Below are positions 5,502-20,129 of a stretch of DNA of 64,000 nucleotides, piece by piece. Under the pieces are notes generated by a model. The model had not been told where the DNA came from, searched no databases, and was given only the letters and a program-made list of their open reading frames with translations. Every line of letters starts with the position of its first letter. The first letter of the stretch is position 1. This DNA is from a virus. The position numbers were made by a program, and so were the translations under genes. The stretch is from the IMG/VR virus record IMGVR_UViG_3300021425_000008, positions 32,001-96,000 of that record, one strand, 5' to 3'.

Positions 5502-5513
5502 GGGTAATATAAA

Positions 5514-8500
5514 ATGAGTATTCGTCAGGATGTCTTTGGATTAGAGACAGTTTATAGTCTTCAGATAGAAGGATTATGGAGTGTTAAACCTGATGTGTGG
5601 TTAAGTCCAAGTCCATTTTTTGGATCTTGGGAGTATGGTTACTTTGGTGGTTCTCCTTCATCATCAACAATAGACCGCATAGATTACTCTAACGATACAG
5701 CAACAGCATCAGTAAGAGGACCATTAAGTATTGATAGATATCAATTATCGGCAACAGGCAATGCTTCTTATGGTTATTTTGGTGGTGGTGGTAGTCCTGG
5801 ATTATCAATAGTAGACCGTATAGATTACTCCAATGACACTGCAACAGCATCAGTAAGAGGTTCATTAAGTATTGGTAGAAGACTTTCATCTGCAACAGGT
5901 AATGCTTCTTTTGGTTACTTTTCAGGTGCTATTCCTGCAAAATCAACAGTAGACCGTATAGATTACTCTAATGATACCGCAACAGCATCAGTAAGAGGAC
6001 CATTAAGTTCTACTAGATATGGTGCAGCAGGAACAGGAAATCAATCATTTGGTTACTTTGGTGGTGGTGGTCCTGGTCCAAAGTCAACAGTAGACCGTAT
6101 AGATTACTCTAATGATACAGCAACAGCATCACCAAAAGGACCACTAAGTCTTGCTAGAATTGGTTTAGCAGCAACAGGTAATAGTTCCTTTGGTTACTTT
6201 GGTGGTGGTGGTCCTAGTCCAGAATACTCAACAGTAGACCGTATTGATTACTCTAATGATACGGCAACAGCATCACCAAAAGGACCATTAAGTATTATTA
6301 GAGATTTATTAGCAGCAACAGGTAATGCTTCTTATGGTTATTTTGGTGGAGGAAGTTTTCCCCCATTAACAACAGTAGACCGTATAGATTACTCTAATGA
6401 TACTGCAACAGCATCACCAAAAGGTCCATTGAGTCTTGGTAGAGAGGGTCCAGCAGCATCAAGTGCCAAAGCAAACGCAATTACTGATTTAACAGTAATT
6501 CCAGCATCAACACCAAGACCAACAGAAAGTCCCATTGGTTATGATACTGGGTATTTTGGTGCTGGTCGTCCAGCAGGACCTGGAACATCAACAGTAGATC
6601 GTATTGATTACTCTAACGATACAGCAACAGCATCACCTAAAGGACCATTAAGTGTTGCCAGGGCAATGTTAGCAGCAACAGGTAATAGTTCTTTTGGTTA
6701 TTTTGGTGGTGGTTTTCCTGCTACATCATCAATAGTAGATCGGATTGATTATTCTAATGATACTGCCACTGCAGCACCAAAAGGACCATTAAGTGTGACT
6801 AGACATAATTTAGCAGCAACAGGTAATCAATCATTCGGTTACTTTGGTGGTGGTCGTGCTCCATCAGCATCATCATCAATAGACCGTGTTGATTATTCTA
6901 ATGATACTGCCACTGCAGCATCAAAAGGACCATTAACTTCTGTTAGATATTCTTTCGCAGCAACAGGTAATCAATCATTCGGTTACTTTGTTGGTGGTCG
7001 TCCTTCTCCCAATAAATCATCAGTAGACCGTGTTGATTATTCTAATGACACAGCAACAGCATCACCTAAGGGTCCATTGAGTGATGTTAGGTATGATATG
7101 GCAGCAACGGGTAATGCTGACTTTGGTTACTTTGGTGGTGGTGAAGTCGTAAACACAACTTCAACAGTAGATCGAGTTGATTATTCTAATGATACTGCAA
7201 CGGCAGTAGCAAAAGGTCCATTATCTGATGGTAGATATTCTTTAACAGCAACAGGTAATCAATCATTCGGTTACTTTGGTGGTGGTGTTGCTGCTCCAGG
7301 TCATAGATCAAATATAGACCGTATTGATTACTCTAATGATACTGTTACTGCATCACCTAAGGGTCCATTAACTGCTACAAAATATAAGTTTGCAGCATCA
7401 AGTTCAAGAGCAAATGCACTTCCAACAACAGAAACTGTATTAGTAGCACCTCCAGGACCCACAAACTTTGCAACTGGTGCAGTAGAAACCTTCCAAACTG
7501 GATACTTTGGTGGAGGTCAAGGTCCATACACATCAACAGTAGACCGTGTTGATTACTCTAATGACACGGCAACAGCATCAGTAAAAGGTCCATTGAGTCT
7601 TGCTAGAGCAGCACTAGCAGCAACAGGTAATGCTTCTTATGGTTACTTTGGTGGTGGTCAACCTGGTACAGTATCAACAGTAGACCGTATTGATTACTCT
7701 AATGATACAGCAACAGCATCACCTAAAGGACCATTAAGTTCTAACAGACAATATATGGGAGCAACAGGTAATGCTTCTTATGGTTACTTTGGTGGTGGTC
7801 TTGTAACATCAGTAGTAGACCGTATAGATTACTCTAATGACACTGCAACAGCATCACCAAAAGGTCCATTGAGTGTTGCTAGACAACAATTAGCAGCAAC
7901 AGGTAACCAAAACTTTGGTTACTTTGGTGGTGGTCAAAATCCTGGTGGTAATCTATCAACTGTAGACCGTATTGATTATAGTAATGACACTGCAACAGCA
8001 TCACCTAAAGGACCATTAAGTCTTGCTAGAAGATATCTAGCAGCAACAGGTAGCAGTTCATTTGGTTACTTTGGTGGTGGTTTTCCTGGTCCCATATCAA
8101 CAATAGACCGTATTGATTACTCTAATGACACTGCAACAGCATCACCTAAGGGTCCATTAAGTCTTGCTAGATATGGTTTAGGAGCAACTGGTAGTGCTTC
8201 TTTCGGTTATTTTGGTGGTAGTGCTCCATCAGCATCATCAACAGTAGACCGTATAGACTACTCTAATGATACCGCAACAGCAGCACCAAAAGGACCATTG
8301 AGTTCTGTTAGACAAGATATGGGAGCATCAAGCGCAAGAGCCAACGGATTTGCCGCAATTGATACTACATTACCACCAGCAAACTCACCAGTCCAAAACT
8401 TCCCAGTAACACTCTTTGGTTACTTTGGTGGTGGTGCTCCAGGTCCAGTATCAACAGTAGACCGTATCAATTATGCAAATGACACAGCAACAGCATCACC

Positions 8501-9293
8501 TAAAGGTCCATTAAGTGGTACTAAACAGGGTACAATGGCAACAGGTAATAGTTCTTATGGTTACTTTGGTGGCGGTAATCCATATGTATCAACAGTAGAC
8601 CGAATAGATTACTCTAATGATACGGCAACAGCATCTCCTAAAGGTCCATTGACTGCTGTTAAGGGATTTGGATCTGCAACAGGTAATAGTTCCTTTGGTT
8701 ACTTTGGTGGTGGAGTTAGTCCTGCTTTTAGTCCATCTACCATATCTTCAGTAGACCGCATAGATTATTCTAATGATACAGCAACAGCATCACCTAAGGG
8801 ACCATTAAGTCTTGCCAGACATTACTTAGCAGCAACAGGAAATCAATCTTATGGTTACTTTGGTGGTGGTAATGGTCCATTCTCAACAGTAGACCGTATT
8901 GATTACTCTAATGACACCGCAACAGCATCACCTAAAGGACCATTAAGTGTGGCTAGATATAATGTAGCAGCAACAGGTAATGCTTCTTATGGGTGGTTTG
9001 GTGGTGGTTTTACTCCCAGCCATAGATCAATAGTAGACCGTATTGATTACTCTAACGACACTGCTACAGCATCACCAAGAGGTCCATTAAGTTTTGATAA
9101 AAGTGCTTCAGGAGCAACAGGAAATTCTTTCTTTGGTTACTGGGGTGGTGGAGGTCAAGGAATTCCTCTATCATTAGTAGACCGTATTGATTATTCTAAC
9201 GATACAGCAACAGCATCACCTAAAGGAGCATTGAGTCTTGCTAGAGTATACTTAGCAGCAACCTCAGCAGCAGCAAACGGATTGCCACAATAA
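5514..9293 (+). CDS. Kelch-like beta-propeller repeat protein A (24 repeats, 4 blocks of 6)
   Basis: About 49-aa unit GYFGGG-var-STVDRIDYSNDTATASPKGPLS-xAR-xxLAATGN; GG/R pattern is Kelch-like; three linkers separate blocks of six. Confidence 0.85.
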   Translation: MSIRQDVFGLETVYSLQIEGLWSVKPDVWLSPSPFFGSWEYGYFGGSPSSSTIDRIDYSNDTATASVRGPLSIDRYQLSATGNASYGYFGGGGSPGLSIVDRIDYSNDTATASVRGSLSIGRRLSSATGNASFGYFSGAIPAKSTVDRIDYSNDTATASVRGPLSSTRYGAAGTGNQSFGYFGGGGPGPKSTVDRIDYSNDTATASPKGPLSLARIGLAATGNSSFGYFGGGGPSPEYSTVDRIDYSNDTATASPKGPLSIIRDLLAATGNASYGYFGGGSFPPLTTVDRIDYSNDTATASPKGPLSLGREGPAASSAKANAITDLTVIPASTPRPTESPIGYDTGYFGAGRPAGPGTSTVDRIDYSNDTATASPKGPLSVARAMLAATGNSSFGYFGGGFPATSSIVDRIDYSNDTATAAPKGPLSVTRHNLAATGNQSFGYFGGGRAPSASSSIDRVDYSNDTATAASKGPLTSVRYSFAATGNQSFGYFVGGRPSPNKSSVDRVDYSNDTATASPKGPLSDVRYDMAATGNADFGYFGGGEVVNTTSTVDRVDYSNDTATAVAKGPLSDGRYSLTATGNQSFGYFGGGVAAPGHRSNIDRIDYSNDTVTASPKGPLTATKYKFAASSSRANALPTTETVLVAPPGPTNFATGAVETFQTGYFGGGQGPYTSTVDRVDYSNDTATASVKGPLSLARAALAATGNASYGYFGGGQPGTVSTVDRIDYSNDTATASPKGPLSSNRQYMGATGNASYGYFGGGLVTSVVDRIDYSNDTATASPKGPLSVARQQLAATGNQNFGYFGGGQNPGGNLSTVDRIDYSNDTATASPKGPLSLARRYLAATGSSSFGYFGGGFPGPISTIDRIDYSNDTATASPKGPLSLARYGLGATGSASFGYFGGSAPSASSTVDRIDYSNDTATAAPKGPLSSVRQDMGASSARANGFAAIDTTLPPANSPVQNFPVTLFGYFGGGAPGPVSTVDRINYANDTATASPKGPLSGTKQGTMATGNSSYGYFGGGNPYVSTVDRIDYSNDTATASPKGPLTAVKGFGSATGNSSFGYFGGGVSPAFSPSTISSVDRIDYSNDTATASPKGPLSLARHYLAATGNQSYGYFGGGNGPFSTVDRIDYSNDTATASPKGPLSVARYNVAATGNASYGWFGGGFTPSHRSIVDRIDYSNDTATASPRGPLSFDKSASGATGNSFFGYWGGGGQGIPLSLVDRIDYSNDTATASPKGALSLARVYLAATSAAANGLPQ

Positions 9294-9296
9294 ATA
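9248..9296 (+). repeat. 49-bp 3'-terminal repeat copy 1, containing late promoter ATAAATA over the stop codon
   Basis: Identical to 16635-16683; one mismatch to 19401-19448. Confidence 0.9.
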
Positions 9297-9319
9297 GTCA
9301 AAACAACTAAAACTACACT

Positions 9320-9973
9320 ATGAGTCTAATGATTGCTCTCCCCTGTCATGGGGGAATTGTGAGTGAAAAAACAACAATGAGTTTATTCAATCTGGGTAAA
9401 CTCTTAGTAAGAAATAATATTCCTCACGGTCTTCTCACACAGGCAAACTCTTCTCTAATCACACAAGGAAGATCCAAGTGTGCTAATTTCTTCCTCAACA
9501 ACACAGAGCACGAATATCTTTTCTTCTTAGACAGTGATATTGGTTTTAATCCAGAAGATGTATTAAAACTACTCTCACATCAGGTGGATATTGTTTCTGG
9601 TGCATATCCAATGAAAACAATACCAATTCGTTATTGTTACGATACAATTCAACCAGAGCAACGCAAAGGAGATTTGGTTAAAATAGAAGGAAATGGAATG
9701 GGATTTGTTCTCATTCATCGTAATGTATTCTTGAATATGGCACAAAACTTTCCAGACCTCAAATACATTCCACCAACAAATGACAGTAATCATCCACCAT
9801 CACAGGCAGAGATGAATAATTCATATCACTACTTTATGGAGCACAAGGAAAATCAGTCCTTTATGAGTGAGGACAAAAGTTTCTTTTTTCGTGCTAGAAT
9901 GTTAGGATATGATGTCTGGTTAGATACATCAATCAAATTACAACACGTTGGTTCACATATTTTTGCTGAGTAA
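9320..9973 (+). CDS. Glycosyltransferase-like protein (GT-A fold)
   Basis: IALPC start, SLITQGR, FFLDSDI (DxD), GMGFVLIHR, SEDKSF, WLDTSIKLQHVG motifs. Confidence 0.75.
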   Translation: MSLMIALPCHGGIVSEKTTMSLFNLGKLLVRNNIPHGLLTQANSSLITQGRSKCANFFLNNTEHEYLFFLDSDIGFNPEDVLKLLSHQVDIVSGAYPMKTIPIRYCYDTIQPEQRKGDLVKIEGNGMGFVLIHRNVFLNMAQNFPDLKYIPPTNDSNHPPSQAEMNNSYHYFMEHKENQSFMSEDKSFFFRARMLGYDVWLDTSIKLQHVGSHIFAE

Positions 9974-9975
9974 TT

Positions 9976-12378
9976 ATGAAGTCTGGAGCAACTGAAAGTT
10001 CATTTCATTATCTTTCACAATATTATGAGTTTCCTGAAGAGGTAGAAGTCTCACATCTACCAGAGGAACTTAAAAAGTCTAGTAAACCATACAAAGTCTT
10101 ATGGGCACATCATGCTTATGATCAACCTGCATTTCTAAATTTCAATCATGAGACGGTAACTCACATTGTGACACCATCTCACTGGGCAAAGGAACAATTG
10201 ATCAAGTTTCATAATGTTCCTAAGAATAAAATTACTGTAATTTCAAATGGTGTGAATGATATCTTCACCTATTCTGAAAACAAAACAAAGACTTTTATTC
10301 ATACTTCTATTCCTTACAAAGGTTTAGAACTGATGCCTTCTATTATACAGAGAATTCAACAGAAGCATCCTGATGCAAAGTTTAAAATCTTTTCATCAAT
10401 GTCACTGTATGGTCCTCTGAATGATCCTTATCTTGAATTGTATGAGGATCTGAAGAAACTTCCTAATGTAGAATACTCTGCGGCAGTAGACCAAGAAGAA
10501 CTTGTTTCTGCCTATCAAGAATCTGCTTTCTTCATTCATCCAAACATTTGGGAAGAGACCTTCTGTGTATCAATGGCAGAGGCAATGAAGTCTGGTGCCT
10601 ATCCAATCATTACAAACATTGGAGCACTACAAGAAGTTGCAGGAGAAAACTTTGCATCCGTTGTACCGATTGAGGGCAACCGCACAGCAAAAGGATATCA
10701 GGTTACAGAGAACTTCCTAAATACATTTGCAGAGGTTTGTTGTACTGCTCTAGATTATTTTGACAGGGACATAACATATTATAATCAAATCTCAAAATCA
10801 CTTTCCAATCATATTTCACAGAAGTGTGACTGGAAGAAAGTTGCAAACCAGTGGGAAAAACTCATCAATACTGTTTGTAATCCTAATGTATTTTTTAGGG
10901 AAAATAGTGTTGATAAGTCAATTTATGATGAAGTTTATATTCAAAATGTTTATGAAATTGAAAACCTGAATGAAGATGATGTCATTATTGATATTGGTGC
11001 TCACTGTGGATATTTTTCCAAACTTTGTTTAGATAAGGGAAGTAAAAATGTAATTTCCTATGAGGCAGATGAAAGTAATTACCAATGTTATTTGAAAAAT
11101 CTATCCAAATATCAAGGATGGAAATGTCATAATATTGCCGTTTGGAAAAAATCTTGTGATGAAGTTCCCTTTTATACCTATCCTCACAGTGAAAATACAG
11201 GATTAAATTCTTTCTACAAGAATCCTTATATGAATTCTTATGAGGAAACAAAGGTAAAAACAATTTCTTTGGATGATATTTTATCTTCATATGATAAAAT
11301 CAAAATTTTGAAGATTGATGCAGAAGGAAGTGAGTATGATATTCTTATGAATTCAACATCAATTCAAAAAATTGAAAGTATTGTTGGAGAATATCATAAT
11401 GATATGACTGACAAAACTATGAGTGATTTGAAAACATATTTGGAAACTCAAAACTTTGTCATATACAAAACAGTTAAATACAATGAAACAAGTGGTTTAT
11501 TTTTTGCAAAACACAAGTCTAAAATGAATGGAGAAACTATGACTATTGAAAATACTGCACTGACTTATCAACCCGTTTCGGCAGAACAAGCAGTAATGGA
11601 TGATGATTATCTTCGTAAGGCATTTGATAATGTCATGAAATGGGAAGAAAGTGATAAAGAACTCGCACAAGGCAGAACTAATTTCCAGTTGGAAAAGTTT
11701 GCTCTGCTTGAAACTCATACACTTCCTGTTGCCTTTGAGAACACTCTGAAGTCCCGTCGTCAGATGGCAGAAGGTTATATGTATAAACTCATTGAGATGA
11801 AAGAAAAAGTCCGTGAGTTTGAGTACAAGTGGAAAGACCAAGATCGCACACAACCAATCTTCTGGGAAGAATCTGGTCCTGGTGGCGGATCAAAGAAACT
11901 TTGTTGGTTTGACCTGGATGAACTGGCACTGACTCATTACCTGAAGTCTTGTGAGTTAGAAATTCGTGACCGTCTTTTCCAAATGGAGCATCTGGATAAG
12001 ATTCTTGCCAAACTTGTAGAAGAAAATGGTGGTAAACCAGTCAGTAGAGAGCAGTTCCTGGAAGGTGACGCTCTGTATTGGGAGCGTCGTTTTGCTGATC
12101 AGGCAATGGATGAAATGGTTGCTGCACAGACTGGTATTTCCATTGGCAATCTTCACAGTATGCGTCGTGCTTCTGCACCTTCCATTGTTGATAAGAGAAA
12201 TGAATTACCAGAAGGATATCTGCCATTGAATAAGATGCTTGAAAGTCCTCAAGGTAAGATGGAATTCTTGAATGATCTGCAGAAAAAAGTTCTCACTGGT
12301 ATTCAAGAAGTCACTGGTGAAAATCTGGGTATGATTACTGGAAGTACAGAGGAGCAAAAGAAACTGGAAGGTAACTGA
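9976..12378 (+). CDS. Fusion: GT-B (GT4-like) glycosyltransferase + FkbM-family methyltransferase + helical C-terminal domain
   Basis: HTSIPYKGL and EETFCVSMAEAM (EX7E); IIDIGAHCG and LKIDAEGSE (FkbM); charged helical tail from Met522. Confidence 0.8.
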   Translation: MKSGATESSFHYLSQYYEFPEEVEVSHLPEELKKSSKPYKVLWAHHAYDQPAFLNFNHETVTHIVTPSHWAKEQLIKFHNVPKNKITVISNGVNDIFTYSENKTKTFIHTSIPYKGLELMPSIIQRIQQKHPDAKFKIFSSMSLYGPLNDPYLELYEDLKKLPNVEYSAAVDQEELVSAYQESAFFIHPNIWEETFCVSMAEAMKSGAYPIITNIGALQEVAGENFASVVPIEGNRTAKGYQVTENFLNTFAEVCCTALDYFDRDITYYNQISKSLSNHISQKCDWKKVANQWEKLINTVCNPNVFFRENSVDKSIYDEVYIQNVYEIENLNEDDVIIDIGAHCGYFSKLCLDKGSKNVISYEADESNYQCYLKNLSKYQGWKCHNIAVWKKSCDEVPFYTYPHSENTGLNSFYKNPYMNSYEETKVKTISLDDILSSYDKIKILKIDAEGSEYDILMNSTSIQKIESIVGEYHNDMTDKTMSDLKTYLETQNFVIYKTVKYNETSGLFFAKHKSKMNGETMTIENTALTYQPVSAEQAVMDDDYLRKAFDNVMKWEESDKELAQGRTNFQLEKFALLETHTLPVAFENTLKSRRQMAEGYMYKLIEMKEKVREFEYKWKDQDRTQPIFWEESGPGGGSKKLCWFDLDELALTHYLKSCELEIRDRLFQMEHLDKILAKLVEENGGKPVSREQFLEGDALYWERRFADQAMDEMVAAQTGISIGNLHSMRRASAPSIVDKRNELPEGYLPLNKMLESPQGKMEFLNDLQKKVLTGIQEVTGENLGMITGSTEEQKKLEGN

Positions 12379-12911
12379 TGAACCAAAAGTTTATGATTAT
12401 TGATGACTTTTATGATATTGCACATCAGTATCATCAAAGTTTCTTTAGTAAACAGTGTATGATAACTGAAGAGACTACTCAAAAACTTTCTTATATTTTG
12501 AGTAGTCCTGTGGAAATTGTAGAAGCATTCAATGAAGTTACATTTGAGAATACTGCAAATCCAATTACTGCGAATACTGCTTGTGATTGGATTGCTGTGA
12601 TTTATCTTACAATGCCACCTGATTGTGTATCAAAGAAAGGACTGAGTTTTTACAGTCATAAGAAAACAGGACTTGATAGTTTTCCAAATGAATATGCCTG
12701 TCAAATCAATGGTTGGCAGAATATGGATGATATTGTCAAGTCCTTTGATGTAAGTGATAAGAATGAATGGGAAGAATATGCAAATGTGTTTGTAAAATAT
12801 AATCGTTGTGTGATTTTTCGTGCTGATTATTGGCATTCTTATGGTAATGGTTTTGGTAGTGAAATAAATAACTCAATGCTATACCAGAAGTTGCTGATAA
12901 AAAATGCCTAG
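12378..12911 (+). CDS. DUF6445-like 2OG-Fe(II) oxygenase-fold protein, degenerate active site
   Basis: IIDDFY, WIAVIYL, YNRCVIFRADYWHS match the paralogue at 16701, but no HxD. Confidence 0.65.
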   Translation: MNQKFMIIDDFYDIAHQYHQSFFSKQCMITEETTQKLSYILSSPVEIVEAFNEVTFENTANPITANTACDWIAVIYLTMPPDCVSKKGLSFYSHKKTGLDSFPNEYACQINGWQNMDDIVKSFDVSDKNEWEEYANVFVKYNRCVIFRADYWHSYGNGFGSEINNSMLYQKLLIKNA

Positions 12912-15900
12912 TCCAAGAGGGATATTTCGACTTAAGCAAGTCTATGAGGATCAGTTAAGTGATAACTGGTCTGTTAAAACTGATGTATGGTTAAGTCCAA
13001 GTCCATTTTTTGGATCTTGGGATTATGGTTACTTTTTTGGTGGTGGTCCAGCATTTTATGGACAAACTTCTGCTGATCGTATTGATTTTTCTAATGATAC
13101 TGCTACTGCTACCCTAAAATCTGGAATTTTTGATACAAATAGTGGAACAAAGCAATGGGGTGCTGCAAGTAGTTCTACTGCATCTTATCTTGCCGGTGGT
13201 TATTTTCCAGCAAATACCGACATAAGAAAATTTAACTTTGCTAATGAAACTTCTTCAGTATTGACAACTGCATCACTAGCAACACCAGTTCCAGGATCTT
13301 ATTATGTTACTGGAACTGGAAACCAAAATTTTGGGTATTTTTCTAGTGGAGAAACTGCGACAACAATAGTAACTCGTGTTGATTATTCTAATGATACTTC
13401 AACAAGTGTAGGCAATCTTTCTTTTAGCAGCAGGAGGTCTACTGCAACTGGCAATCAGTCTTATGGATACTTTGGTGGTGGTCTTACAGTATCAACAGTA
13501 GACCGTATTGATTACTCCAATGACACTGCAACTGCATCACCAAAAGGACCATTAAGTGCTGCTAGAGGACAATTAGCAGCAACAGGTAATGCTTTTTATG
13601 GTTACTTTGGTGGTGGTGGTCCTACGTTATCAACAGTAGACCGTATAGATTATTCTAATGATACTGCTACGGCATCACCTAAGGGACCATTGAGTGTTGC
13701 CAGACGTAGTTTAGCAGCAACAGGTAATTCTTCTTATGGATACTTTGGTGGTGGCATTCCATCATCAATAGTAGACCGTATTGACTATTCTAATGACACT
13801 GCAACTGCATCTCCAAAAGGACCATTAAGTGTTGTTAGAGAAGACCCAGGTGCTGGAAGTGCTAAGGCAAACGGAATCACAGATCTGACATTATTGCCAG
13901 CATCAAGCGAGAGACCTAATGCAACACCACAAGGATATGATACTGGTTATTTTGGTGGTGGTGTTTCTCCTGGTGCATCATCAAGAGTAGACCGTATTGA
14001 TTATTCTAATGATACCGCAACAGCATCACCAAAAGGACCGTTAAGTGTTGCTAGATATAATTTAGCAGCAACAGGTAACCAAAACTTTGGTTACTTTGGT
14101 GGTGGTGATCTTTCAAAATCAACAGTAGACCGTATTGATTACTCCAACGATACTGCAACAGCATCACCAAAAGGACCATTGAGTGAAGCTAGACCCGACG
14201 TAGAAGCAACAGGTAATAGTAATTTTGGTTACTTTGGTGGTGGTTCTGGGTATCCTGCTCCTGCATATGCTACTTCTTTAATAGATCGTGTAGATTATTC
14301 TAATGATACTGCCACTGCATCACCAAAAGGTAATTTGAGTGTAATAAGACAAGGTGCTGGAGCAACAGGTACTCAATCTTTTGGTTACTTTGCGGGTGGA
14401 TTTAGTGGTCCTAGTGCAACATCAACAACAGATCGTGTTGATTATTCTAATGACACCGCAACAGCAGTGCTGAAAGGTAATTTAAGTAGTGCTAAAAATT
14501 CAACTGGAGCAACAGGAAACTCTTCTTTCGGTTACTTTGCTGGTGCTTCTTCTTATATTACAACAGTTGATCGTCTTGATTACTCTAGTGATACAACAGC
14601 AATGTCACCTAAGGGTTCACTAAGTACTGCTAGAGGAAGTATGGGAGCAACAGGAAGTGCTTCCTTTGGTTACTTTGCTGGTGGACAAACTACTGGTGGT
14701 CCCAGAATTTCAACAATAGATCGTGTAGACTATTCCAACGATACTGCAACAGCATCACCTAAGGGTTTACTTAATGCTAATGTGTCTGGTATGGGAGCAT
14801 CAAGTTCCAGAGCAAATGCAATACCACTCAAAGGACCTGGTGTTCTGTCCCAACCATTTAACCTTGCAACTGGTGCTGTAGAAACCTTTAATACTGGTTA
14901 CTTTGGTGGTGGTCAACCTTCTCCAAACTCAACAGTAGACCGTATTGATTACTCTAATGATACTGCTACTGCATCACCTAAAGGTCCATTAAGTTTTACT
15001 AGCAGAGACTTGTCAGCAACAGGTAATGCTAATTTTGGTTACTTTGGTGGTGGTTATACTCCTGCTCCATTCTCAACAGTGAGTCGTATAGATTACTTGA
15101 ATGATACAGCAACAGCAGTAGCAAAAGGACCATTGAGCACAACAAAACTTAGAACTGGAGCAACAGGTAATGCTTCATTTGGTTACTTTGGTGGTGGTCA
15201 AAATCCTGGTGGTAATCTATCAACTGTAGACCGTATTGATTATAGTAATGACACTGCAACAGCATCACCTAAAGGACCATTAAGTGATGCCAGGACAGCA
15301 CTGTCAGCAACGGGTAATCAGGATTTTGGTTACTTTGGTGGTGGGGAAAGTCCTGGTGATGTTTCAACAGTAGATCGTGTTGATTATTCTAATGATACTG
15401 CAACGGCAGTAGCAAAAGGACCACTGAGTGTTGCCTCATTAAGATTCGGAGCAACAGGTAATAGTTCTTTTGGTTACTTTGCCGGTGGATTTAGTCCTAC
15501 TATATCAACAGTAAGTAGAATTGACTATAGTAATGATACTGCAACAGCATCACCAAAAGGTCCATTAAGTGCTGCTAAAGGATATGCTGCTGCTACAGGA
15601 GATAGTTCTTTTGGATACTTTGCTGGTGGAGTTACACCTGCTATAATATCAACAATAGACCGTATTGATTATTCGAATGATACAGCAACGGCATCTCCTA
15701 AAGGGTCATTAAGTTCTACTAGGGGAAATCATGCAGCATCATCCGCAAGAGCAAACGGATTTGCCGCAGTCGGTCCAGCAGTAACAGCAAACTCACCAGT
15801 CCAAAACTTCCCAGTAACATTCTTTGGTTATTTTGGTGGTGGTTTTTCTCCTGCTACTGTATCAATAATAGACCGTATTAATTATACTAATGATACTGTA

Positions 15901-16680
15901 ACAGCCTCAGTAAGAGGATCATTAAGTGTTGGTAAGTATGGTGTAGCAGCAACAGGTAACAGTTCTTATGGTTACTTTGGTGGTGGTTTTCCTGGACCAT
16001 TATCAACAGTAGACCGTATAGATTACTCTAATGATACCGCAACAGCATCACCAAAAGGACCATTAAGTCTTGCTAGAAATTACTTAGCAGCAACAGGTAA
16101 TGGTTCTTTTGGTTACTTTGGTGGTGGTAGTCCAACATTATCAACAGTAGACCGTATTGATTACTCTAATGATACCGCAACAGCATCACCTAAGGGACCA
16201 TTGAGTTCTGCTAGAGAGTTTTTAGCAGCAACAGGTAATGCTTCTTTTGGTTACTTTGGTGGTGGTAGTCCTACAACATCAGTAGTAGACCGCATTGATT
16301 ACTCCAATGATACTGCAACAGCATCACCTAAAGGACCATTGAGTGTTGCTAGGGGATATACTGGAGCAACAGGTAATGGTTCTTTTGGTTACTTTGGTGG
16401 TGGTCTTCCTTCGGGAGCAACAGTAGACCGTATAGATTATTCTAATGACACAGCAACAGCATCACCTAAGGGTCCATTGAGTCTTGCTAGAAATGGTTTA
16501 GCAGCAACAGGTAATAGTTCCTTTGGTTATTTTGGTGGTGGTGGTCCTGGTCCAAGATCAACAGTAGATCGTATTGATTACTCTAACGATACAACAACAG
16601 CATCAGTAAAAAGTCCATTGAGTCTTGCTAGACAATACTTAGCAGCAACCTCAGCAGCAGCAAACGGATTGCCACAATAA
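12904..16680 (+). CDS. Kelch-like beta-propeller repeat protein B (24 repeats, 4 blocks of 6)
   Basis: Same unit, linkers and termini as protein A; first three repeats divergent. Confidence 0.85.
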   Translation: MPSPRGIFRLKQVYEDQLSDNWSVKTDVWLSPSPFFGSWDYGYFFGGGPAFYGQTSADRIDFSNDTATATLKSGIFDTNSGTKQWGAASSSTASYLAGGYFPANTDIRKFNFANETSSVLTTASLATPVPGSYYVTGTGNQNFGYFSSGETATTIVTRVDYSNDTSTSVGNLSFSSRRSTATGNQSYGYFGGGLTVSTVDRIDYSNDTATASPKGPLSAARGQLAATGNAFYGYFGGGGPTLSTVDRIDYSNDTATASPKGPLSVARRSLAATGNSSYGYFGGGIPSSIVDRIDYSNDTATASPKGPLSVVREDPGAGSAKANGITDLTLLPASSERPNATPQGYDTGYFGGGVSPGASSRVDRIDYSNDTATASPKGPLSVARYNLAATGNQNFGYFGGGDLSKSTVDRIDYSNDTATASPKGPLSEARPDVEATGNSNFGYFGGGSGYPAPAYATSLIDRVDYSNDTATASPKGNLSVIRQGAGATGTQSFGYFAGGFSGPSATSTTDRVDYSNDTATAVLKGNLSSAKNSTGATGNSSFGYFAGASSYITTVDRLDYSSDTTAMSPKGSLSTARGSMGATGSASFGYFAGGQTTGGPRISTIDRVDYSNDTATASPKGLLNANVSGMGASSSRANAIPLKGPGVLSQPFNLATGAVETFNTGYFGGGQPSPNSTVDRIDYSNDTATASPKGPLSFTSRDLSATGNANFGYFGGGYTPAPFSTVSRIDYLNDTATAVAKGPLSTTKLRTGATGNASFGYFGGGQNPGGNLSTVDRIDYSNDTATASPKGPLSDARTALSATGNQDFGYFGGGESPGDVSTVDRVDYSNDTATAVAKGPLSVASLRFGATGNSSFGYFAGGFSPTISTVSRIDYSNDTATASPKGPLSAAKGYAAATGDSSFGYFAGGVTPAIISTIDRIDYSNDTATASPKGSLSSTRGNHAASSARANGFAAVGPAVTANSPVQNFPVTFFGYFGGGFSPATVSIIDRINYTNDTVTASVRGSLSVGKYGVAATGNSSYGYFGGGFPGPLSTVDRIDYSNDTATASPKGPLSLARNYLAATGNGSFGYFGGGSPTLSTVDRIDYSNDTATASPKGPLSSAREFLAATGNASFGYFGGGSPTTSVVDRIDYSNDTATASPKGPLSVARGYTGATGNGSFGYFGGGLPSGATVDRIDYSNDTATASPKGPLSLARNGLAATGNSSFGYFGGGGPGPRSTVDRIDYSNDTTTASVKSPLSLARQYLAATSAAANGLPQ

Positions 16681-16683
16681 ATA
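16635..16683 (+). repeat. 49-bp 3'-terminal repeat copy 2, containing late promoter ATAAATA
   Basis: Identical to 9248-9296; a second ATAAATA at 16690-16696. Confidence 0.9.
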
Positions 16684-16700
16684 CTTCAAATAAATATATT

Positions 16701-17318
16701 ATGAGACAAAACATCATTGTTGTGGATGACTTCTACTCAAATCCACAAGAAGTTAGAGAGTTTGCACTCAAGGCAGAATATCCAGAACCAACAGACGACT
16801 ATACATATCCAGGAAGAAACTCAGAAGATTCTTATTATTCTCAAGACATTCATAAGTCCTTTGAGAATATCATCAAAGAACCACTCATACCAGCAGATAA
16901 GAATGGATATTTTCGCATCTCATTAGAAACTGATACTCATAAACAGGATGTTCATGTAGATCCATCTTGGGAATGGGGTGCCGTAATTTATATGTCATCA
17001 CCAGAAGATTGTGTTGATGAAGGTGGCACATCATTCTGGAAACATAATACTCTTCAGTCAGAAAACATTCCAAAGACTGATGAAGAAGCACAGTTTTATG
17101 GATATCCAACTTATAAAGAATGTTGGTGGACGACAGTATATGGTGATGGACTTGACAGAAATAAATGGACTCGTTACTTTCTGTGCCCGATGAGGTATAA
17201 TAGACTAGTATTATTTCGCACTCATTTGTGGCACTCTCATAATTTTAACTTTGGAAATACATTAGAAAACGGTAGATTGGTTCAGTTATTTTTCTTCAAT
17301 CCAGTCAAGGAGTGGTAA
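16701..17318 (+). CDS. DUF6445-like 2OG-Fe(II) oxygenase
   Basis: VVDDFYSNP, YPGR, HVD, GGTSFW, YNRLVLFR..WHS, GRLVQLFFF: intact HxD...H...R. Confidence 0.75.
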   Translation: MRQNIIVVDDFYSNPQEVREFALKAEYPEPTDDYTYPGRNSEDSYYSQDIHKSFENIIKEPLIPADKNGYFRISLETDTHKQDVHVDPSWEWGAVIYMSSPEDCVDEGGTSFWKHNTLQSENIPKTDEEAQFYGYPTYKECWWTTVYGDGLDRNKWTRYFLCPMRYNRLVLFRTHLWHSHNFNFGNTLENGRLVQLFFFNPVKEW

Positions 17319-17869
17319 TGAAACATAAGGTTTATATTTCTGGCACTGGACGATGTGGAACAACATTTCTTGTGATTATTCTTTCCTATCTTGGTCTTGA
17401 TACTGGATACACAAAAGAAACATTCACCAATCACATCTATGAAAACTGCAATTCTGGATTGGATAAACAATGGGATGATACACCATATATTCTAAAGTCC
17501 CCAGCATTTCTTAATCAAATGGATAGACTTCTGAATTCATTCATTATTGATTATATGATTATTCCAGTAAGAAAGTTTGAGGATTCGGCAAAGTCCAGAG
17601 CATTTCATAATCAACAACCAGGAGGATTGTGGGAGGCAAAAAATTATGAAGAACAACTTTCATTTTTTTATAAAATATTTGAGAACTATAAGAAACTAGA
17701 AAAAGAACATCATATACCAACAATCTATCTGGATTTTGATACAATGATATCATCACCAGAGTATCTTTATGAAAATCTAAAACCAATTCTCAAAGAAACT
17801 ACACTAGAACAATTCACAGGAGCATTTGAGTTTGCAACAAATCATCAAAGGAGAAAGAAAAATGTATAG
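17318..17869 (+). CDS. Sulfotransferase-like P-loop protein
   Basis: ISGTGRCGTTFL 5'-PSB loop, LKSP, IIPVR; ATG overlaps upstream TAA. Confidence 0.65.
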   Translation: MKHKVYISGTGRCGTTFLVIILSYLGLDTGYTKETFTNHIYENCNSGLDKQWDDTPYILKSPAFLNQMDRLLNSFIIDYMIIPVRKFEDSAKSRAFHNQQPGGLWEAKNYEEQLSFFYKIFENYKKLEKEHHIPTIYLDFDTMISSPEYLYENLKPILKETTLEQFTGAFEFATNHQRRKKNV

Positions 17870-18344
17870 TGCATATTATGTTCCAAAGTTTCCAGTTTCT
17901 TATATCACACAAGATGGAAGAGACCTGTGGATCAATAATCCAAATCATATAAAACATCAGTGTGGATTATTGCAAGCGATATTAGAGCACATAGATAATA
18001 CAAATCATATTGATCCAGTTCGTATTGTTATTCCAGTAGAAGGTCAGGTTCAGGCAGGACCAGCAGGAGTGCAGAGATTATATGCACTGACATATTTAAA
18101 AGGTCATACGCATGTCCCTGCAATTGTATCAACTCAAAAATTGTATGATTGGTTTGGTGAAGGTGTAGTAGAAATTAAAGATAAAGATCAACTTAGGTCA
18201 TATCTTTCAATAGAACCTGTTGATTATGGTATTGACCCTGATGGAAAAGCACACTGGCATAATCAAAATCCAAATGAAAAACAAATGAGAGAAACCCTTA
18301 AAGTATCTGAGAAAACATTAAATAAAATTTTGAAGTGTATATGA
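17862..18344 (+). CDS. Hypothetical protein
   Basis: AAGGAG SD then ATG 17862; tightly coupled to both neighbours. Confidence 0.65.
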   Translation: MYSAYYVPKFPVSYITQDGRDLWINNPNHIKHQCGLLQAILEHIDNTNHIDPVRIVIPVEGQVQAGPAGVQRLYALTYLKGHTHVPAIVSTQKLYDWFGEGVVEIKDKDQLRSYLSIEPVDYGIDPDGKAHWHNQNPNEKQMRETLKVSEKTLNKILKCI

Positions 18345-19159
18345 AAAAATATCATTTTATGGCAGGACTTCCACGATCAGGAAGCACCTTATTGAAAAGT
18401 TTGATTGACCAGAACCCAAACATTCATACAGAACCTGTGAGTTCTGTGATGGAACTGATGTATCATACTGAAGAATATTTTAAGCATTCAGAACAATACT
18501 TAGGATATCCAAAACCACAGAATGCTCATAAGATCATCAGTAGTTTTATAGAGAATTATTATTACGAAAGAGAAGAAGATATTATTATAGATCACTGCCG
18601 TGCTTGGCCCAATAATATTGAAAGAATCAAAACTTATATCACACCCAATCCAAAGATTATCTGTCCTGTAAGAGACATCGCAGAAATTCTCACATCTTTT
18701 ATTACAATGGTGCATCGTAATGACGACCAAGTTTCATTTATAGATCAACACCTGATTGAAAAAGGTGTCACTGTGGATGATGATAATCGTTGTCAGTATT
18801 TGATGAGTGATGATGGGATTATAGAGCAAGCACTGTGGGCACAAAGTCAGGCATTTATCAAGAATGATACAAGACACTTATTGATGGTTGAATATAATGA
18901 CTTAGTGAATACTCCTGATGAAACGATGAGAAGGATTTATGATTTCTTAGAGATGGATGATTACGATCATAACTTCAAGAATGTGGAAAATCATCATCGT
19001 GAAAATGATGACCAATGGTATCTCAAGGATATGCACTATGTGAGAAAAGAAGTGAAAAAGACTTCTAAGAAGCCAGAGGATGTTTTGTCTCCTTACATTC
19101 TAAATAAGTATAAGAAACTGGAATACTGGAAGTATCCCGATAGTCCTTATTTAATATAA
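18341..19159 (+). CDS. Sulfotransferase family protein
   Basis: MAGLPRSGSTLL, KIICPVRD...S, VEYNDLV..P...RIYDFL. Confidence 0.85.
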   Translation: MKKYHFMAGLPRSGSTLLKSLIDQNPNIHTEPVSSVMELMYHTEEYFKHSEQYLGYPKPQNAHKIISSFIENYYYEREEDIIIDHCRAWPNNIERIKTYITPNPKIICPVRDIAEILTSFITMVHRNDDQVSFIDQHLIEKGVTVDDDNRCQYLMSDDGIIEQALWAQSQAFIKNDTRHLLMVEYNDLVNTPDETMRRIYDFLEMDDYDHNFKNVENHHRENDDQWYLKDMHYVRKEVKKTSKKPEDVLSPYILNKYKKLEYWKYPDSPYLI

Positions 19160-19160
19160 G

Positions 19161-19445
19161 ATGGCAGTAACTAATAAAAGAGGAATATTCGCACTTTTAG
19201 ATGTAAGAGAACGACAGGCAACTGGAAATTGGCCTGTTAAACCTGATGTATGGTTAAGTCCTAGTCCTTTTACTTCTCCTTCTCCAAATACTGGTTACTT
19301 TGGTGGTGGTGCTCCTACAATATCAAGAGTAGACCGTATAGATTACTCTAATGACACTGCAACAGCATCAGTAAGAGGACCATTAAGTGTTGGTAGATAT
19401 TACTTAGCAGCAACCTCAGCAGCAGCAAACGGACTGCCACAATAA
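19161..19445 (+). CDS. Single-repeat paralogue of the Kelch-like proteins (protein C)
   Basis: Same N-terminal header (WxVKPDVWLSPSPF), one repeat, same C-terminus YLAATSAAANGLPQ. Confidence 0.8.
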   Translation: MAVTNKRGIFALLDVRERQATGNWPVKPDVWLSPSPFTSPSPNTGYFGGGAPTISRVDRIDYSNDTATASVRGPLSVGRYYLAATSAAANGLPQ

Positions 19446-19448
19446 ATA
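19401..19448 (+). repeat. 3'-terminal repeat copy 3 with late promoter ATAAATA
   Basis: 47/48 identical to copies 1 and 2; shares a further GTCAAAA with copy 1. Confidence 0.9.
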
Positions 19449-19466
19449 GTCAAAATCACATATATT

Positions 19467-20129
19467 ATGATTGAAAATCCATTATCATATATTCTTATTC
19501 GTCCTAATGTCATCAACTCACAAGGTCTTCAAGAACTTGTATCACATATCAAGTCGTCTCCAGCAGAAGATTTATCAGTCTTTGATCCAGACAAAACAAA
19601 TGCAACTGGAAAAACATCTTGGATTGTAGATAAACAAACCAGAGATACTCAAATCGTTCCAATGGGTCCTTTGTATCCTAAGATTGAGGACTTATTTCGT
19701 AATACAGTAAAGAATATCATCAATCCTTTCTATCAGGTAGAAGTGGATAGTAGTGAAATACCACAAGTATTATCTTATGGTATTGGTGGTCATTATCGTC
19801 CTCACATTGATGGTGAAAGTATTTGGATGACACCAAGAGGTGAAAAGATATGGAAAAAAAGTACGAACAGAGATTTATCCATAATTTTTTATTTGAACAA
19901 TGACTTTGAGGGTGGTGATTTTATTTTCCCAGAACTTAAGATAAGAATAAGACCAGAACCAGGTATGTTGGTTTGTTTTCCTTCTAATCATCATTATTCT
20001 CATGGAGTTGAGTCCGTTACCAAAGGTAAGAGGTATTCAATTGTCTCATGGGCAACTGTCAAAGGATTTCCATCTATGGATGATGTCAATCAACAACTCT
20101 CACAAGAGTATGGAGTTCCAGTCATATAA
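19467..20129 (+). CDS. Prolyl 4-hydroxylase-like 2OG-Fe(II) oxygenase
   Basis: YRPHID, SIIFYLNNDFEGGDF, FPS...HGVESVTKGKRYSIVSW. Confidence 0.85.
   Translation: MIENPLSYILIRPNVINSQGLQELVSHIKSSPAEDLSVFDPDKTNATGKTSWIVDKQTRDTQIVPMGPLYPKIEDLFRNTVKNIINPFYQVEVDSSEIPQVLSYGIGGHYRPHIDGESIWMTPRGEKIWKKSTNRDLSIIFYLNNDFEGGDFIFPELKIRIRPEPGMLVCFPSNHHYSHGVESVTKGKRYSIVSWATVKGFPSMDDVNQQLSQEYGVPVI

What the first reader, a model, noticed from the sequence alone, without database searches (positions are those of the whole stretch)
5514..20129. Repeat-protein plus tailoring-enzyme island: candidate phage-encoded virion surface modification system
Seen: three paralogous Kelch-like genes, each followed by its own enzyme set. 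A is followed by a GT-A glycosyltransferase, a GT-B/FkbM fusion and a DUF6445-like protein. B is followed by an intact DUF6445 oxygenase, two sulfotransferases and an unknown gene. C is followed by a prolyl-4-hydroxylase-like enzyme. All lie behind late promoters, directly downstream of tail-fibre genes. Known: these families hydroxylate, glycosylate, O-methylate and sulfate substrates. Inference: a pathway that builds a hydroxylated, glycosylated, methylated and sulfated coat on the propeller proteins or fibres, tuning host binding or shielding the virion. Late timing argues against a DNA-base or early host-takeover role.
Basis: partly seen in the sequence, partly recalled or inferred. Interest (0 to 1): 0.8.

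Follow-up and report, generated by a model that had tools for sequence, protein, structure and literature searches.

The report
Cyanophage propeller fibres with tailoring enzymes
Behind its tail-fibre genes, a T4-like marine cyanophage encodes strings of Kelch-type propellers mixed with hydroxylase, sugar-adding, methyl-adding and sulfate-adding enzymes; the set travels together in many phages, so the phage probably decorates its own host-binding proteins, but no chemistry shows this yet.

Summary
Genes A and B (1259 and 1258 aa) each hold 24 repeats of about 47 aa, in four blocks of six. A modelled block is a six-bladed Kelch propeller. Gene C (94 aa) is a one-blade remnant of a gene that is 1267-1900 aa in relatives.

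Between them lie a GT-A glycosyltransferase, a GT4-FkbM-helical-domain fusion, a degenerate DUF6445 paralogue, an intact DUF6445 oxygenase, one clear sulfotransferase and a prolyl-hydroxylase-like oxygenase. A second sulfotransferase rests on a motif only. Late-promoter-like motifs sit at the stop codons of A, B and C, not before every gene.

50 of 53 loci found through the repeat carry core enzymes. All 33 loci found through the sulfotransferase carry a repeat gene. Gene order and repeat-gene number vary while the enzyme set stays. Orthologues occur only in phages that have such propellers, including the siphovirus S-SKS1.

Self-decoration of virion propellers is the best reading (about 0.5) but is unproven. 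The conserved blade motif is explained by the Kelch fold and DNA-level homogenisation. One bacterial homologue lacks two of the enzymes.

This scan noted the same system earlier in at least seven other genomes.

The parts
220..3381 (+). Tail fibre gene (context, upstream of the island)
   Evidence: phrog_17885 tail fiber protein, E 2e-152
3735..5501 (+). Fibre-like gene TF2, directly upstream of the first propeller gene; this position is conserved in relatives
   Evidence: Matches to tail fibre PHROGs, E 3e-10. Homologues at 44-78% identity sit before the island in related loci.
5514..9293 (+). Propeller gene A: about 35-aa leader, then 4 blocks of 6 Kelch-type blades, then the shared tail ending AANGLPQ
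   Evidence: AlphaFold2 pLDDT 89.8 and Kelch fold matches.
9290..9296 (+). Late-promoter-like ATAAATA overlapping the stop codon of A, 24 nt before the GT-A start
   Evidence: The same 3' end DNA is found in A, B and C.
9320..9973 (+). GT-A-type glycosyltransferase (217 aa)
   Evidence: phrog_1574. Invariant DSD motif. Profile match to the STIV A197 GT-A structure 2c0n, E 1.6e-6. Pfam GT2 only at E 0.03.
9976..12378 (+). Three-part fusion: GT4 glycosyltransferase (aa 1-326), FkbM methyltransferase (about 327-517), and a conserved helical domain of unknown function (518-800)
   Evidence: Pfam and NCBIfam. Relatives mostly have a GT4-helical fusion of about 585 aa without FkbM. Helical domain: AlphaFold2 pLDDT 83.5; the only confident fold match is the S-SKS1 orthologue.
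12378..12911 (+). Degenerate DUF6445 paralogue (177 aa) that overlaps the start of gene B by 8 nt. It lacks the HxD motif and the Arg of the intact paralogue.
   Evidence: Pfam 22.5 bits, below the cut-off of 24. Alignment and sequence.
12864..12870 (+). Late-promoter-like ATAAATA 34 nt before the start of B
12904..16680 (+). Propeller gene B (1258 aa), paralogue of A with a different leader type (MPSPRGIFRLKQVYE)
16677..16683 (+). Late-promoter-like ATAAATA at the stop codon of B (a second copy lies at 16690)
16701..17318 (+). Intact DUF6445 protein, a probable 2OG/Fe(II) oxygenase (HVD ... WHSH ... GR)
   Evidence: Pfam PF20043, 7.5e-14. Motifs. The nearest named Atlas clusters are 2OG-FeII_Oxy_3, score 0.90-0.91, a lead only.
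17312..17869 (+). Unassigned 185-aa ORF with a PAPS-loop-like N-terminus (GTGRCGTT); rare accessory gene
   Evidence: No HMM match. hhalign to the sulfotransferase covers only 25 residues, E 9e-4. Found in only one other contig.
17826..18344 (+). Unassigned 172-aa ORF; accessory, present in a minority of relatives
   Evidence: No HMM match. Present in 6 of 53 loci.
18335..19159 (+). Sulfotransferase (274 aa) with an intact PAPS-binding loop
   Evidence: Pfam Sulfotransfer_3, 8.3e-18. Invariant GLPRSGST-type loop.
19161..19445 (+). Propeller gene C, contracted to 94 aa: C-type leader, one blade and the shared tail
   Evidence: phrog_19111, E 5.6e-8. C-type genes are 1267-1900 aa in relatives.
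19442..19448 (+). Late-promoter-like ATAAATA at the stop codon of C
19467..20129 (+). Prolyl-hydroxylase-like 2OG/Fe(II) oxygenase with invariant H-x-D, distal His and Arg
   Evidence: Pfam PF13640, 1.6e-16. Sequence matches to solved P3H1 and Bacillus P4H structures. Invariant H113, D115, H179, R189.
20154..20540 (+). Conserved 128-aa partner gene that follows the P4H-like gene in most relatives; function unknown
   Evidence: A longer homologue follows the P4H gene in S-SKS1.
20611..20946 (+). LtfC-like tail-fibre assembly protein (context, downstream end of the island)
   Evidence: phrog_3304, E 5e-26. Pfam LtfC, 3.3e-5.

Best explanation
The island is one functional module of the tail-fibre region of a T4-like cyanophage.

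The propeller proteins are probably virion fibre or adhesin subunits. Each has a short conserved leader followed by strings of six-bladed Kelch propellers. One face of each propeller carries hypervariable loops rich in Pro, Ser and Thr.

The co-inherited enzymes most likely modify these proteins in the infected cell before assembly:
- The P4H-like enzyme and the intact DUF6445 oxygenase hydroxylate side chains. The best candidate sites are prolines in the first variable loop.
- The GT-A and GT4 enzymes add sugars.
- The FkbM domain, where present, O-methylates a sugar.
- The sulfotransferase sulfates a sugar or a hydroxyl group, using host PAPS.

The helical domain fused to GT4 and the catalytically degenerate DUF6445 paralogue may act as recruiting or assembly factors rather than enzymes.

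Shown: the gene content, the Kelch fold, intact catalytic motifs, and conserved linkage across lineages. Inferred: virion location, substrate identity, modification sites and the order of reactions.
For: 1. Reciprocal co-occurrence.
- 50 of 53 IMG/VR loci fetched with the repeat carry at least one of six core enzymes within 10 kb. The exceptions are two short contigs and a second site on a contig that holds the island elsewhere.
- 33 of 33 loci fetched with the sulfotransferase carry a repeat gene.

2. The set is kept while the order changes.
- AG-345-L05 has the cassettes permuted.
- A contig binned in a Paceibacterota MAG has repeat gene, GT4, sulfotransferase, GT-A, helical protein, P4H and DUF6445 in a new order, at 28-48% identity.
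- Relatives keep all enzymes with one to three propeller genes.

3. Orthologue specificity. In 50,697 phage records, homologues above 40% identity of the sulfotransferase, DUF6445 and P4H occur only in S-SKS1 and the AG-345 viruses. The only GT-A homologue above 40% is in AG-345-L05. All these records have the propellers. Identity then falls below about 37%.

4. The siphovirus S-SKS1 repeats the layout: helical protein, propeller gene, sulfotransferase, mini propeller gene, P4H, g128-like gene.

5. AG-345-E08 has an analogous island. Three RCC1-type propellers with a similar leader are interleaved with P4H-like, 2OG-FeII_Oxy_5, GT25, sulfotransferase and DUF6445 genes.

6. Fusion evidence. GT4 is fused to the helical domain that stands alone next to the propeller gene in S-SKS1. 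GT4 is the only recurring fusion partner of that domain among 135 family representatives.

7. Structural-module context and late-promoter-like motifs. ATAAATA follows 20 of 56 repeat genes, against 47 of 386 other ORFs.

8. Catalytic motifs are intact.

9. 36 of 41 first variable loops in the window contain Pro in a Ser/Thr-rich context.

10. Precedents. A Kelch protein is part of the virion of phage CBB (PMC5259590). A propeller protein and a 2OG oxygenase were found in cyanophage virion preparations (PMC12801897). Bacterial 'hydroxylate then sulfate' operons with co-encoded structural substrates have been predicted (PMC2938197).
Against: - There are no chemical or proteomic data for any member.
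- The near-invariant blade motif follows the Kelch pattern. Its conserved residues keep position-specific codons (for example Ser at -3 is TCA in 39 of 41 blades, and Ser at +18 is AGT in 39 of 40). This points to DNA-level homogenisation rather than selection by an enzyme.
- A Hyphomicrobiaceae MAG encodes a single-propeller homologue with the motif intact, at host-like GC content. No P4H or sulfotransferase orthologue was found in its 4.9 Mb.
- Four of that homologue's six loops still contain Pro, so loop prolines do not depend on the hydroxylase.
- Pro at blade position +16 is not kept in lineages that still have the P4H gene.
- The literature usually reads cyanophage glycosyltransferase clusters as modifiers of the host cell surface (PMC12801897).
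- Linkage inside a hypervariable fibre region could partly reflect shared recombination history.
Confidence: 0.5

Rival explanations
1. The enzymes act on host envelope glycans (LPS, exopolysaccharide) or make a free glycan. The propellers are independent, lectin-like receptor-binding proteins. The genes travel together because both serve adsorption or exclusion of other phages.
For: - GT4, GT-A, FkbM and NodH/NoeE-like sulfotransferases are typical glycan-building enzymes.
- The literature reads cyanophage glycosyltransferase clusters this way (PMC12801897).
- AG-345-E08 adds sugar-nucleotide genes next to its island.
- Some relatives fuse the propeller to a ConA-like lectin domain.
Against: - The orthologous enzymes are never seen without a propeller gene in the phage records and loci examined.
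- They sit inside the late structural module, behind late-promoter-like motifs.
- GT4 is fused to a domain that stands alone beside the propeller gene in S-SKS1.
- Two protein-type hydroxylases are hard to place in a glycan pathway.
- Surface conversion is typical of temperate phages, not lytic ones (general knowledge).
Confidence: 0.2
2. The enzymes modify other virion proteins, such as the upstream fibre proteins, rather than the propellers.
For: The island lies directly after two fibre genes, and TF2 is kept at that position in relatives.
Against: - No collagen-like or Pro-rich repeats are present in the neighbouring fibre proteins.
- S-SKS1 and the MAG contig L093 keep the enzymes beside propeller genes without detectable TF1 or TF2 homologues in the locus.
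Confidence: 0.12
3. There is no functional link. The enzymes and propeller genes are neighbours only because both sit in a recombination-prone accessory region of the fibre module.
For: The region shows blade-level recombination: a 108-bp identical tract shared out of register, contraction of gene C, and variable accessory ORFs.
Against: - The same enzyme set recurs with propellers in a myovirus, a siphovirus and very divergent contigs, in different orders.
- The enzymes are better conserved than the propellers: about 60% against about 30% identity in AG-345-L05.
Confidence: 0.08
4. The oxygenases, transferases and sulfotransferase make a small secondary metabolite, as was once proposed for cyanophage dioxygenase arrays.
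For: PMC2938197 suggested secondary-metabolite roles for tandem dioxygenases in cyanophage Syn9.
Against: No peptide synthetase, halogenase or other scaffold-forming enzyme is present in the island. The placement is late and structural.
Confidence: 0.05

Closest known systems
Predicted bacterial 'hydroxylate then sulfate' operons: 2OG dioxygenases plus sulfotransferase (and methyltransferase) with co-encoded tail-collar or collagen-like proteins (Iyer, Abhiman, de Souza, Aravind 2010, PMC2938197)
   Same: 2OG/Fe(II) oxygenases, a sulfotransferase and a methyltransferase are encoded beside a repetitive, phage-fibre-related structural protein that is proposed as their substrate. Both are predictions from gene neighbourhood only.
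   Different: Here the putative substrate is a string of Kelch propellers, not a tail-collar or collagen-like protein. The oxygenases are P4H-like and DUF6445 types. Two glycosyltransferases are added. No PAPS synthetase lies in the island. The carrier is a lytic phage.
Virion glycosylation in mycobacteriophages (Freeman et al. 2023, cited in PMC12801897; details from my own knowledge)
   Same: Phage-encoded glycosyltransferases next to structural genes decorate the phage's own virion proteins.
   Different: There the targets are capsid and tail-tube subunits and only sugars are added. Here the likely targets are fibre propellers, and hydroxylases, a methyltransferase and a sulfotransferase are added. 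Nothing has been shown at the bench.
Chlorovirus PBCV-1: a virus-encoded prolyl 4-hydroxylase (A085R) and virus-encoded glycosyltransferase/methyltransferase enzymes for the capsid glycan (my own knowledge; A085R is named in the abstract listed)
   Same: A virus brings its own prolyl hydroxylase and its own multi-domain sugar- and methyl-transferases to modify viral structural proteins.
   Different: That is a eukaryotic giant virus with different enzyme families and targets. No sulfation is known there. No sequence relationship was tested here.
Kelch-repeat six-bladed propellers (Keap1, KLHL12) and the Kelch virion protein CBB_552 of jumbo phage CBB (PMC5259590)
   Same: Six four-stranded blades of about 47 aa with a GG doublet and a conserved Arg. 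Fold match at TM 0.8-0.9 by target. A Kelch protein in a phage virion has been shown by mass spectrometry.
   Different: The window proteins do not reach any Pfam Kelch threshold. Four propellers are strung in one chain behind a phage-specific leader. The blades are unusually uniform apart from two variable loops.
Hydroxyproline-rich glycoproteins of plants and green algae (Hyp O-glycosylation; my own knowledge)
   Same: [Ser/Thr/Ala]-Pro contexts together with a prolyl hydroxylase and glycosyltransferases. Sulfated forms exist in algae.
   Different: This is an analogy only. No homology of the glycosyltransferases was tested, and the site and chemistry are unknown here.

Membership tests
Kelch-repeat beta-propeller | Repeats of 44-56 aa, each forming one four-stranded blade; six blades per domain | tested here: met
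   Repeat spacing is 45-52 aa in blocks of six. The AlphaFold2 model (pLDDT 89.8) matches six-bladed Kelch domains.
Kelch-repeat beta-propeller | Sequence signature: hydrophobic run plus GG doublet, conserved aromatic/Asp, conserved Arg | tested here: met
   The consensus over 781 blades has FGYFGGG, DRIDY and PLS-x-AR. The Kelch Trp is replaced by Ala/Thr.
Kelch-repeat beta-propeller | Match to a Pfam Kelch model above the gathering score | tested here: not met
   The window proteins have no Pfam match. Relatives reach Kelch_KLHDC2 at E 1.7e-11 but 44 bits, below the cut-off of 50. It works like a Kelch propeller; sequence-family membership is only borderline.
2OG-Fe(II) oxygenase, prolyl-hydroxylase-like (PF13640) | Pfam match above cut-off; H-x-D ... 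H iron triad and a basic residue for 2-oxoglutarate | tested here: met
   61.4 bits against a cut-off of 27. Invariant H113, D115, H179 and R189 in 29 orthologues.
2OG-Fe(II) oxygenase, prolyl-hydroxylase-like (PF13640) | Hydroxylates peptidyl proline | not testable with these tools
   There is only sequence similarity to solved P3H1 and P4H enzymes, E 7e-10 to 2e-5, over the catalytic core.
DUF6445 (PF20043) | Pfam match above cut-off, with an H-x-D ... H ... R pattern | tested here: met
   16701-17318 scores 52.6 bits against a cut-off of 24 and has HVD, WHSH and GR. The paralogue 12378-12911 fails both tests: 22.5 bits, and ITANT in place of HVD.
Sulfotransferase (PF13469/PF00685) | Pfam match above cut-off and a PAPS-binding loop | tested here: met
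   65.9 bits against a cut-off of 27. The PRSGST loop is invariant. The acceptor cannot be tested. The second candidate, 17312-17869, does not meet the test.
GT4 glycosyltransferase (Glycos_transf_1 / Glyco_transf_4) | Pfam matches to both GT-B halves above cut-off | tested here: met
   47.7 bits and 32.1 bits, both above their cut-offs.
FkbM-family methyltransferase | Match to PF05050 / TIGR01444 above cut-off | tested here: met
   47.7 bits and 81.5 bits. The domain is absent from most relatives.
GT-A glycosyltransferase (GT2-like) | DxD motif and a GT-A family match | tested here: inconclusive
   The DSD motif is invariant. The profile matches the STIV A197 GT-A structure at E 1.6e-6. Pfam GT2 reaches only E 0.03, below its cut-off.
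'Hydroxylate then sulfate' operons of Iyer et al. 2010 | 2OG dioxygenase(s) and a sulfotransferase co-encoded with a repetitive structural protein | tested here: met
'Hydroxylate then sulfate' operons of Iyer et al. 2010 | The substrate protein is a tail-collar or collagen-like protein, and the oxygenases belong to the beta-hydroxylase or PhyH families | tested here: not met
   The protein is a Kelch propeller. No collagen-like runs occur nearby. The oxygenases are PF13640 and PF20043. It may work like these operons but is not a member of that set.
Phage virion glycosylation systems | Glycans shown on virion proteins and dependent on the phage glycosyltransferases | not testable with these tools
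   This needs mass spectrometry of virions.

The most novel reading that the evidence does not exclude
The phage builds a hydroxyproline-linked, partly O-methylated and sulfated glycan on the hypervariable Pro/Ser/Thr loops of its Kelch propellers. Its host-binding surface would then be a glycoprotein, resembling algal or plant hydroxyproline-rich glycoproteins, made by viral enzymes in a bacterial cytoplasm. The GT4-fused helical domain and the dead DUF6445 paralogue would serve as substrate-recruiting factors.
Probability: 0.22. Interest if true: 0.85.

Novelty: new variant of a known kind. Interest (0 to 1): 0.62.

Why it matters
If the enzymes do decorate the propellers, this would be the first multi-step modification pathway for receptor-binding proteins of a bacterial virus, combining hydroxylation, glycosylation, methylation and sulfation. 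It occurs in abundant marine cyanophages. It would add a chemical layer to host recognition and to the phage-host arms race in the ocean.

It would also give simple bacterial-cytoplasm enzymes for site-specific hydroxylation, glycosylation and sulfation of a repeat scaffold.

The system is directly testable, because one carrier, Synechococcus phage S-SKS1 on strain WH7803, is in culture.

Tried and rejected
- A query for the helical domain was cut one base out of frame. It was redone in frame. The conclusions did not change, but the 'Cterm800' column should be ignored.
- DUF6445 has no sequence match to solved structures, either as a single sequence or as a profile.
- hhalign of DUF6445 against the P4H orthologues found nothing. 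Its oxygenase reading rests on motifs and a weak Atlas lead.
- The helical domain has no Pfam, Atlas or solved-structure sequence match. Fold searches give only generic coiled-coil or prefoldin-like matches (Foldseek E about 1; VIA Z 7), so a chaperone reading is only a guess.
- Collagen-like repeats, the classical P4H substrate, were looked for in neighbouring fibre proteins. None were found.
- The idea that the invariant SNDT / KGP blade motif is the enzyme recognition site was considered and downgraded.
The one P4H-less homologue still has Pro in 4 of 6 loops.
- Exact TATAAATA is not enriched in the window.
- 17312-17869 as a second sulfotransferase has motif-level support only.
- psbA was not found in this 68%-complete record. 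The cyanophage assignment rests on gp23 and on the nearest relatives.

Full report
**Setting.** The window is bases 32001-96000 of a 141-kb IMG/VR virus record that CheckV rates 68% complete. The record encodes a T4-type major capsid protein (Pfam Gp23, E 3.6e-150). Its nearest public relatives are Synechococcus phages and single-cell 'Marine virus AG-345' records, one of which is classed in Kyanoviridae. The finding lies in the tail-fibre part of the structural module. Upstream genes 220-3381 and 3735-5501 match tail-fibre PHROGs, and 20611-20946 is an LtfC-like fibre assembly protein.

**The propeller genes.** A (5514-9293, 1259 aa) and B (12904-16680, 1258 aa) are paralogues (61% identity over the first block).
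- A holds 24 repeats spaced 45-52 aa in four blocks of six, separated by linkers of about 25 aa. B has the same length and layout; 20 of its repeats fit the strict anchor.
- Both match phrog_19111 and no Pfam family.
- An AlphaFold2 model of A residues 1-335, built on 47 homologous N-terminal blocks, has pLDDT 89.8 and pTM 0.85.
- Its best Foldseek matches are six-bladed Kelch domains: Keap1, KLHL12 and the SAKe designs, with E about 1e-16 and TM 0.73 by query, 0.8-0.9 by target.
- The consensus of 781 distinct blades follows the Kelch pattern of a hydrophobic run with a GG doublet, an aromatic/Asp pair and a conserved Arg.
- C (19161-19445) is 94 aa: a leader, one blade, and the tail shared with A and B.
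- In relatives the gene with the C-type leader is 1267-1900 aa, so C is a contraction product.
- Three leader types (A, B and C) are conserved across relatives. No other ORF of this genome has such a leader.

**The enzymes.**
- 9320-9973 is GT-A-like. It has an invariant DSD motif, and its profile matches the STIV A197 structure at E 1.6e-6. Pfam GT2 falls below its cut-off.
- 9976-12378 is a fusion of GT4, an FkbM methyltransferase and a 283-aa helical domain.
- In most relatives GT4 and the helical domain form one ORF of about 585 aa. FkbM is an insertion found in a minority. In a few lineages the two are separate genes, and in S-SKS1 the helical protein stands alone.
- The helical domain models well (pLDDT 83.5). 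It matches only its S-SKS1 orthologue with confidence; other matches are generic coiled-coil or prefoldin-like.
- Its family is small: 135 representatives among 1.84 billion proteins. GT4 is its only recurring fusion partner.
- 16701-17318 is an intact DUF6445 protein with an HVD ... WHSH ... GR pattern.
- 12378-12911 is a paralogue that lacks the HxD and the Arg, yet is conserved in nearly all relatives and overlaps the start of B.
- 18335-19159 is a sulfotransferase with an intact PAPS loop.
- 19467-20129 is a P4H-like 2OG oxygenase with an invariant iron triad.
- 17312-17869 has only a PAPS-loop-like N-terminus, and 17826-18344 has no match. Both are rare accessory ORFs.
- 20154-20540 is a conserved partner of the P4H gene, of unknown function.

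**Promoter claim.** ATAAATA, the core of the NATAAATA motif that I recall as the cyanomyovirus late promoter (my own knowledge), overlaps the stop codons of A, B and C and precedes B.
- The 3' ends of the three genes are nearly identical DNA, so the motif was copied with the gene end.
- In relatives it follows 20 of 56 repeat genes against 47 of 386 other ORFs. Many others carry a different conserved AT-rich element at the same place.
- Exact TATAAATA is not enriched in the window.
- The claim therefore holds for the first enzyme gene after each propeller gene, not for all genes.

- 53 IMG/VR loci were fetched with the repeat. 50 of them carry at least one of six core enzymes within 10 kb. The exceptions are two contigs under 6 kb and a second site on a contig that has the island elsewhere.
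- 33 loci were fetched with the sulfotransferase. All 33 carry a repeat gene, 31 carry DUF6445 and 28 carry the P4H-like gene.
- The enzyme set persists while the number of propeller genes varies from one to three and the cassette order changes.
- A very divergent contig binned in a Paceibacterota MAG has the repeat gene, GT4, sulfotransferase, GT-A, helical protein, P4H and DUF6445 in yet another order, at 28-48% identity.
- Among 50,697 phage records, homologues above 40% identity occur only in records that also have the propellers: S-SKS1 and the AG-345 viruses for the sulfotransferase, DUF6445 and P4H, and AG-345-L05 alone for the GT-A. The next best matches are below about 37%.
- S-SKS1, a siphovirus, repeats the layout, including a 168-aa mini propeller gene ahead of the P4H gene.
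- AG-345-E08 has three RCC1-type propellers with a similar leader (judged by eye). They are interleaved with P4H-like, 2OG-FeII_Oxy_5, GT25, sulfotransferase and DUF6445 genes.
- In AG-345-L05 the enzymes are about 60% identical to the window's while the propellers are about 30%. The enzymes are therefore the conserved part and the propellers the fast-evolving part.

**What this supports.** The genes form one functional module. The most economical reading is that the enzymes modify the propeller proteins, which are probably virion fibre or adhesin subunits.
- Candidate sites are the first variable loops. 36 of 41 in the window contain Pro in a Ser/Thr-rich context.
- The literature gives precedents. 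A Kelch protein has been found in a phage virion (PMC5259590). A propeller protein and a 2OG oxygenase have been found in cyanophage virion preparations (PMC12801897). Bacterial operons have been predicted in which 2OG dioxygenases and sulfotransferases modify co-encoded tail-collar or collagen-like proteins (PMC2938197).

**What weakens it.**
- No chemistry exists for any member.
- The striking blade motif is not evidence for enzyme recognition. It follows the Kelch pattern. Its conserved residues keep position-specific synonymous codons. A 108-bp tract is identical between A and B. Together these point to DNA-level homogenisation.
- A Hyphomicrobiaceae MAG carries a single-propeller homologue with the motif intact, at host-like GC content. 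No P4H or sulfotransferase orthologue was found in its 4.9 Mb.
- The family is otherwise almost absent from 185,579 species genomes, but it is large in metagenomes: at least 1396 proteins of 184-587 aa, some fused to ConA-like or Ig-like domains.

**Rivals.** The alternatives are action on host surface glycans, modification of other fibre proteins, mere hitch-hiking in a variable region, and a small-molecule product. They are weighed in their own sections. None explains the reciprocal linkage and the GT4-helical-domain fusion as well.

**Novelty and earlier notes.** I found no paper describing this island. Notes of this scan, which I read after reaching my own conclusion, describe the same system in at least seven other genomes with the same reading. 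It is therefore recurrent and not unique to this window. I class it as a new variant of a known kind: viruses and bacteria that tailor their own surface proteins.

Noticed in passing
window 7914-8021 and 15178-15285: A 108-bp tract is identical between genes A and B. It lies in different blades of the third block, which suggests recent blade-level gene conversion.
   Followed up: partly
window 5514-9293, 12904-16680: Conserved blade residues use position-specific synonymous codons (for example Ser at -3 is TCA in 39 of 41 blades, and Ser at +18 is AGT in 39 of 40). The constant framework is therefore homogenised at the DNA level while the loops diverge.
   Followed up: partly
L091:9521-10855 (Hyphomicrobiaceae MAG contig, 121 kb): A 444-aa protein with an N-terminal beta-rich domain and one six-blade propeller, 62% identical to the phage block. 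Its GC content is host-like (about 56%). No P4H or sulfotransferase orthologue was found in the 4.9-Mb genome. This may be a transfer between phage and bacterium.
   Followed up: partly
L090 (Marine virus AG-345-E08), about 5000-17000: An analogous island in which three RCC1-type propellers with a similar N-terminal leader replace the Kelch type. It also holds P4H-like, 2OG-FeII_Oxy_5, GT25, sulfotransferase, DUF6445, TPR and sugar-nucleotide genes.
   Followed up: partly
related loci, e.g. L002:14770-14800, L005:13745-13775, L011:5558-5590: A conserved AT-rich element (TATGCTATAATAAACAAAA) follows the stop codon of many propeller genes in relatives. It sits where the window has CAATAAATA and may be a variant promoter.
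   Followed up: no
L001:6226-6887 (S-SKS1 SWZG_00286/00285): The P4H-like gene of S-SKS1 is annotated as two overlapping ORFs. This is either a frameshift or a sequencing error. S-SKS1 also has a 168-aa mini propeller gene (SWZG_00287), comparable to gene C here.
   Followed up: no
window 41816-53917 and 56218-63921: Two giant ORFs of 4033 and 2567 aa lie further downstream in the structural region. They were not examined.
   Followed up: no
window 12378-12911: A DUF6445 paralogue without the metal-binding HxD is conserved in nearly all relatives and overlaps the start of propeller gene B. It is a candidate pseudo-enzyme with a binding or assembly role.
   Followed up: partly
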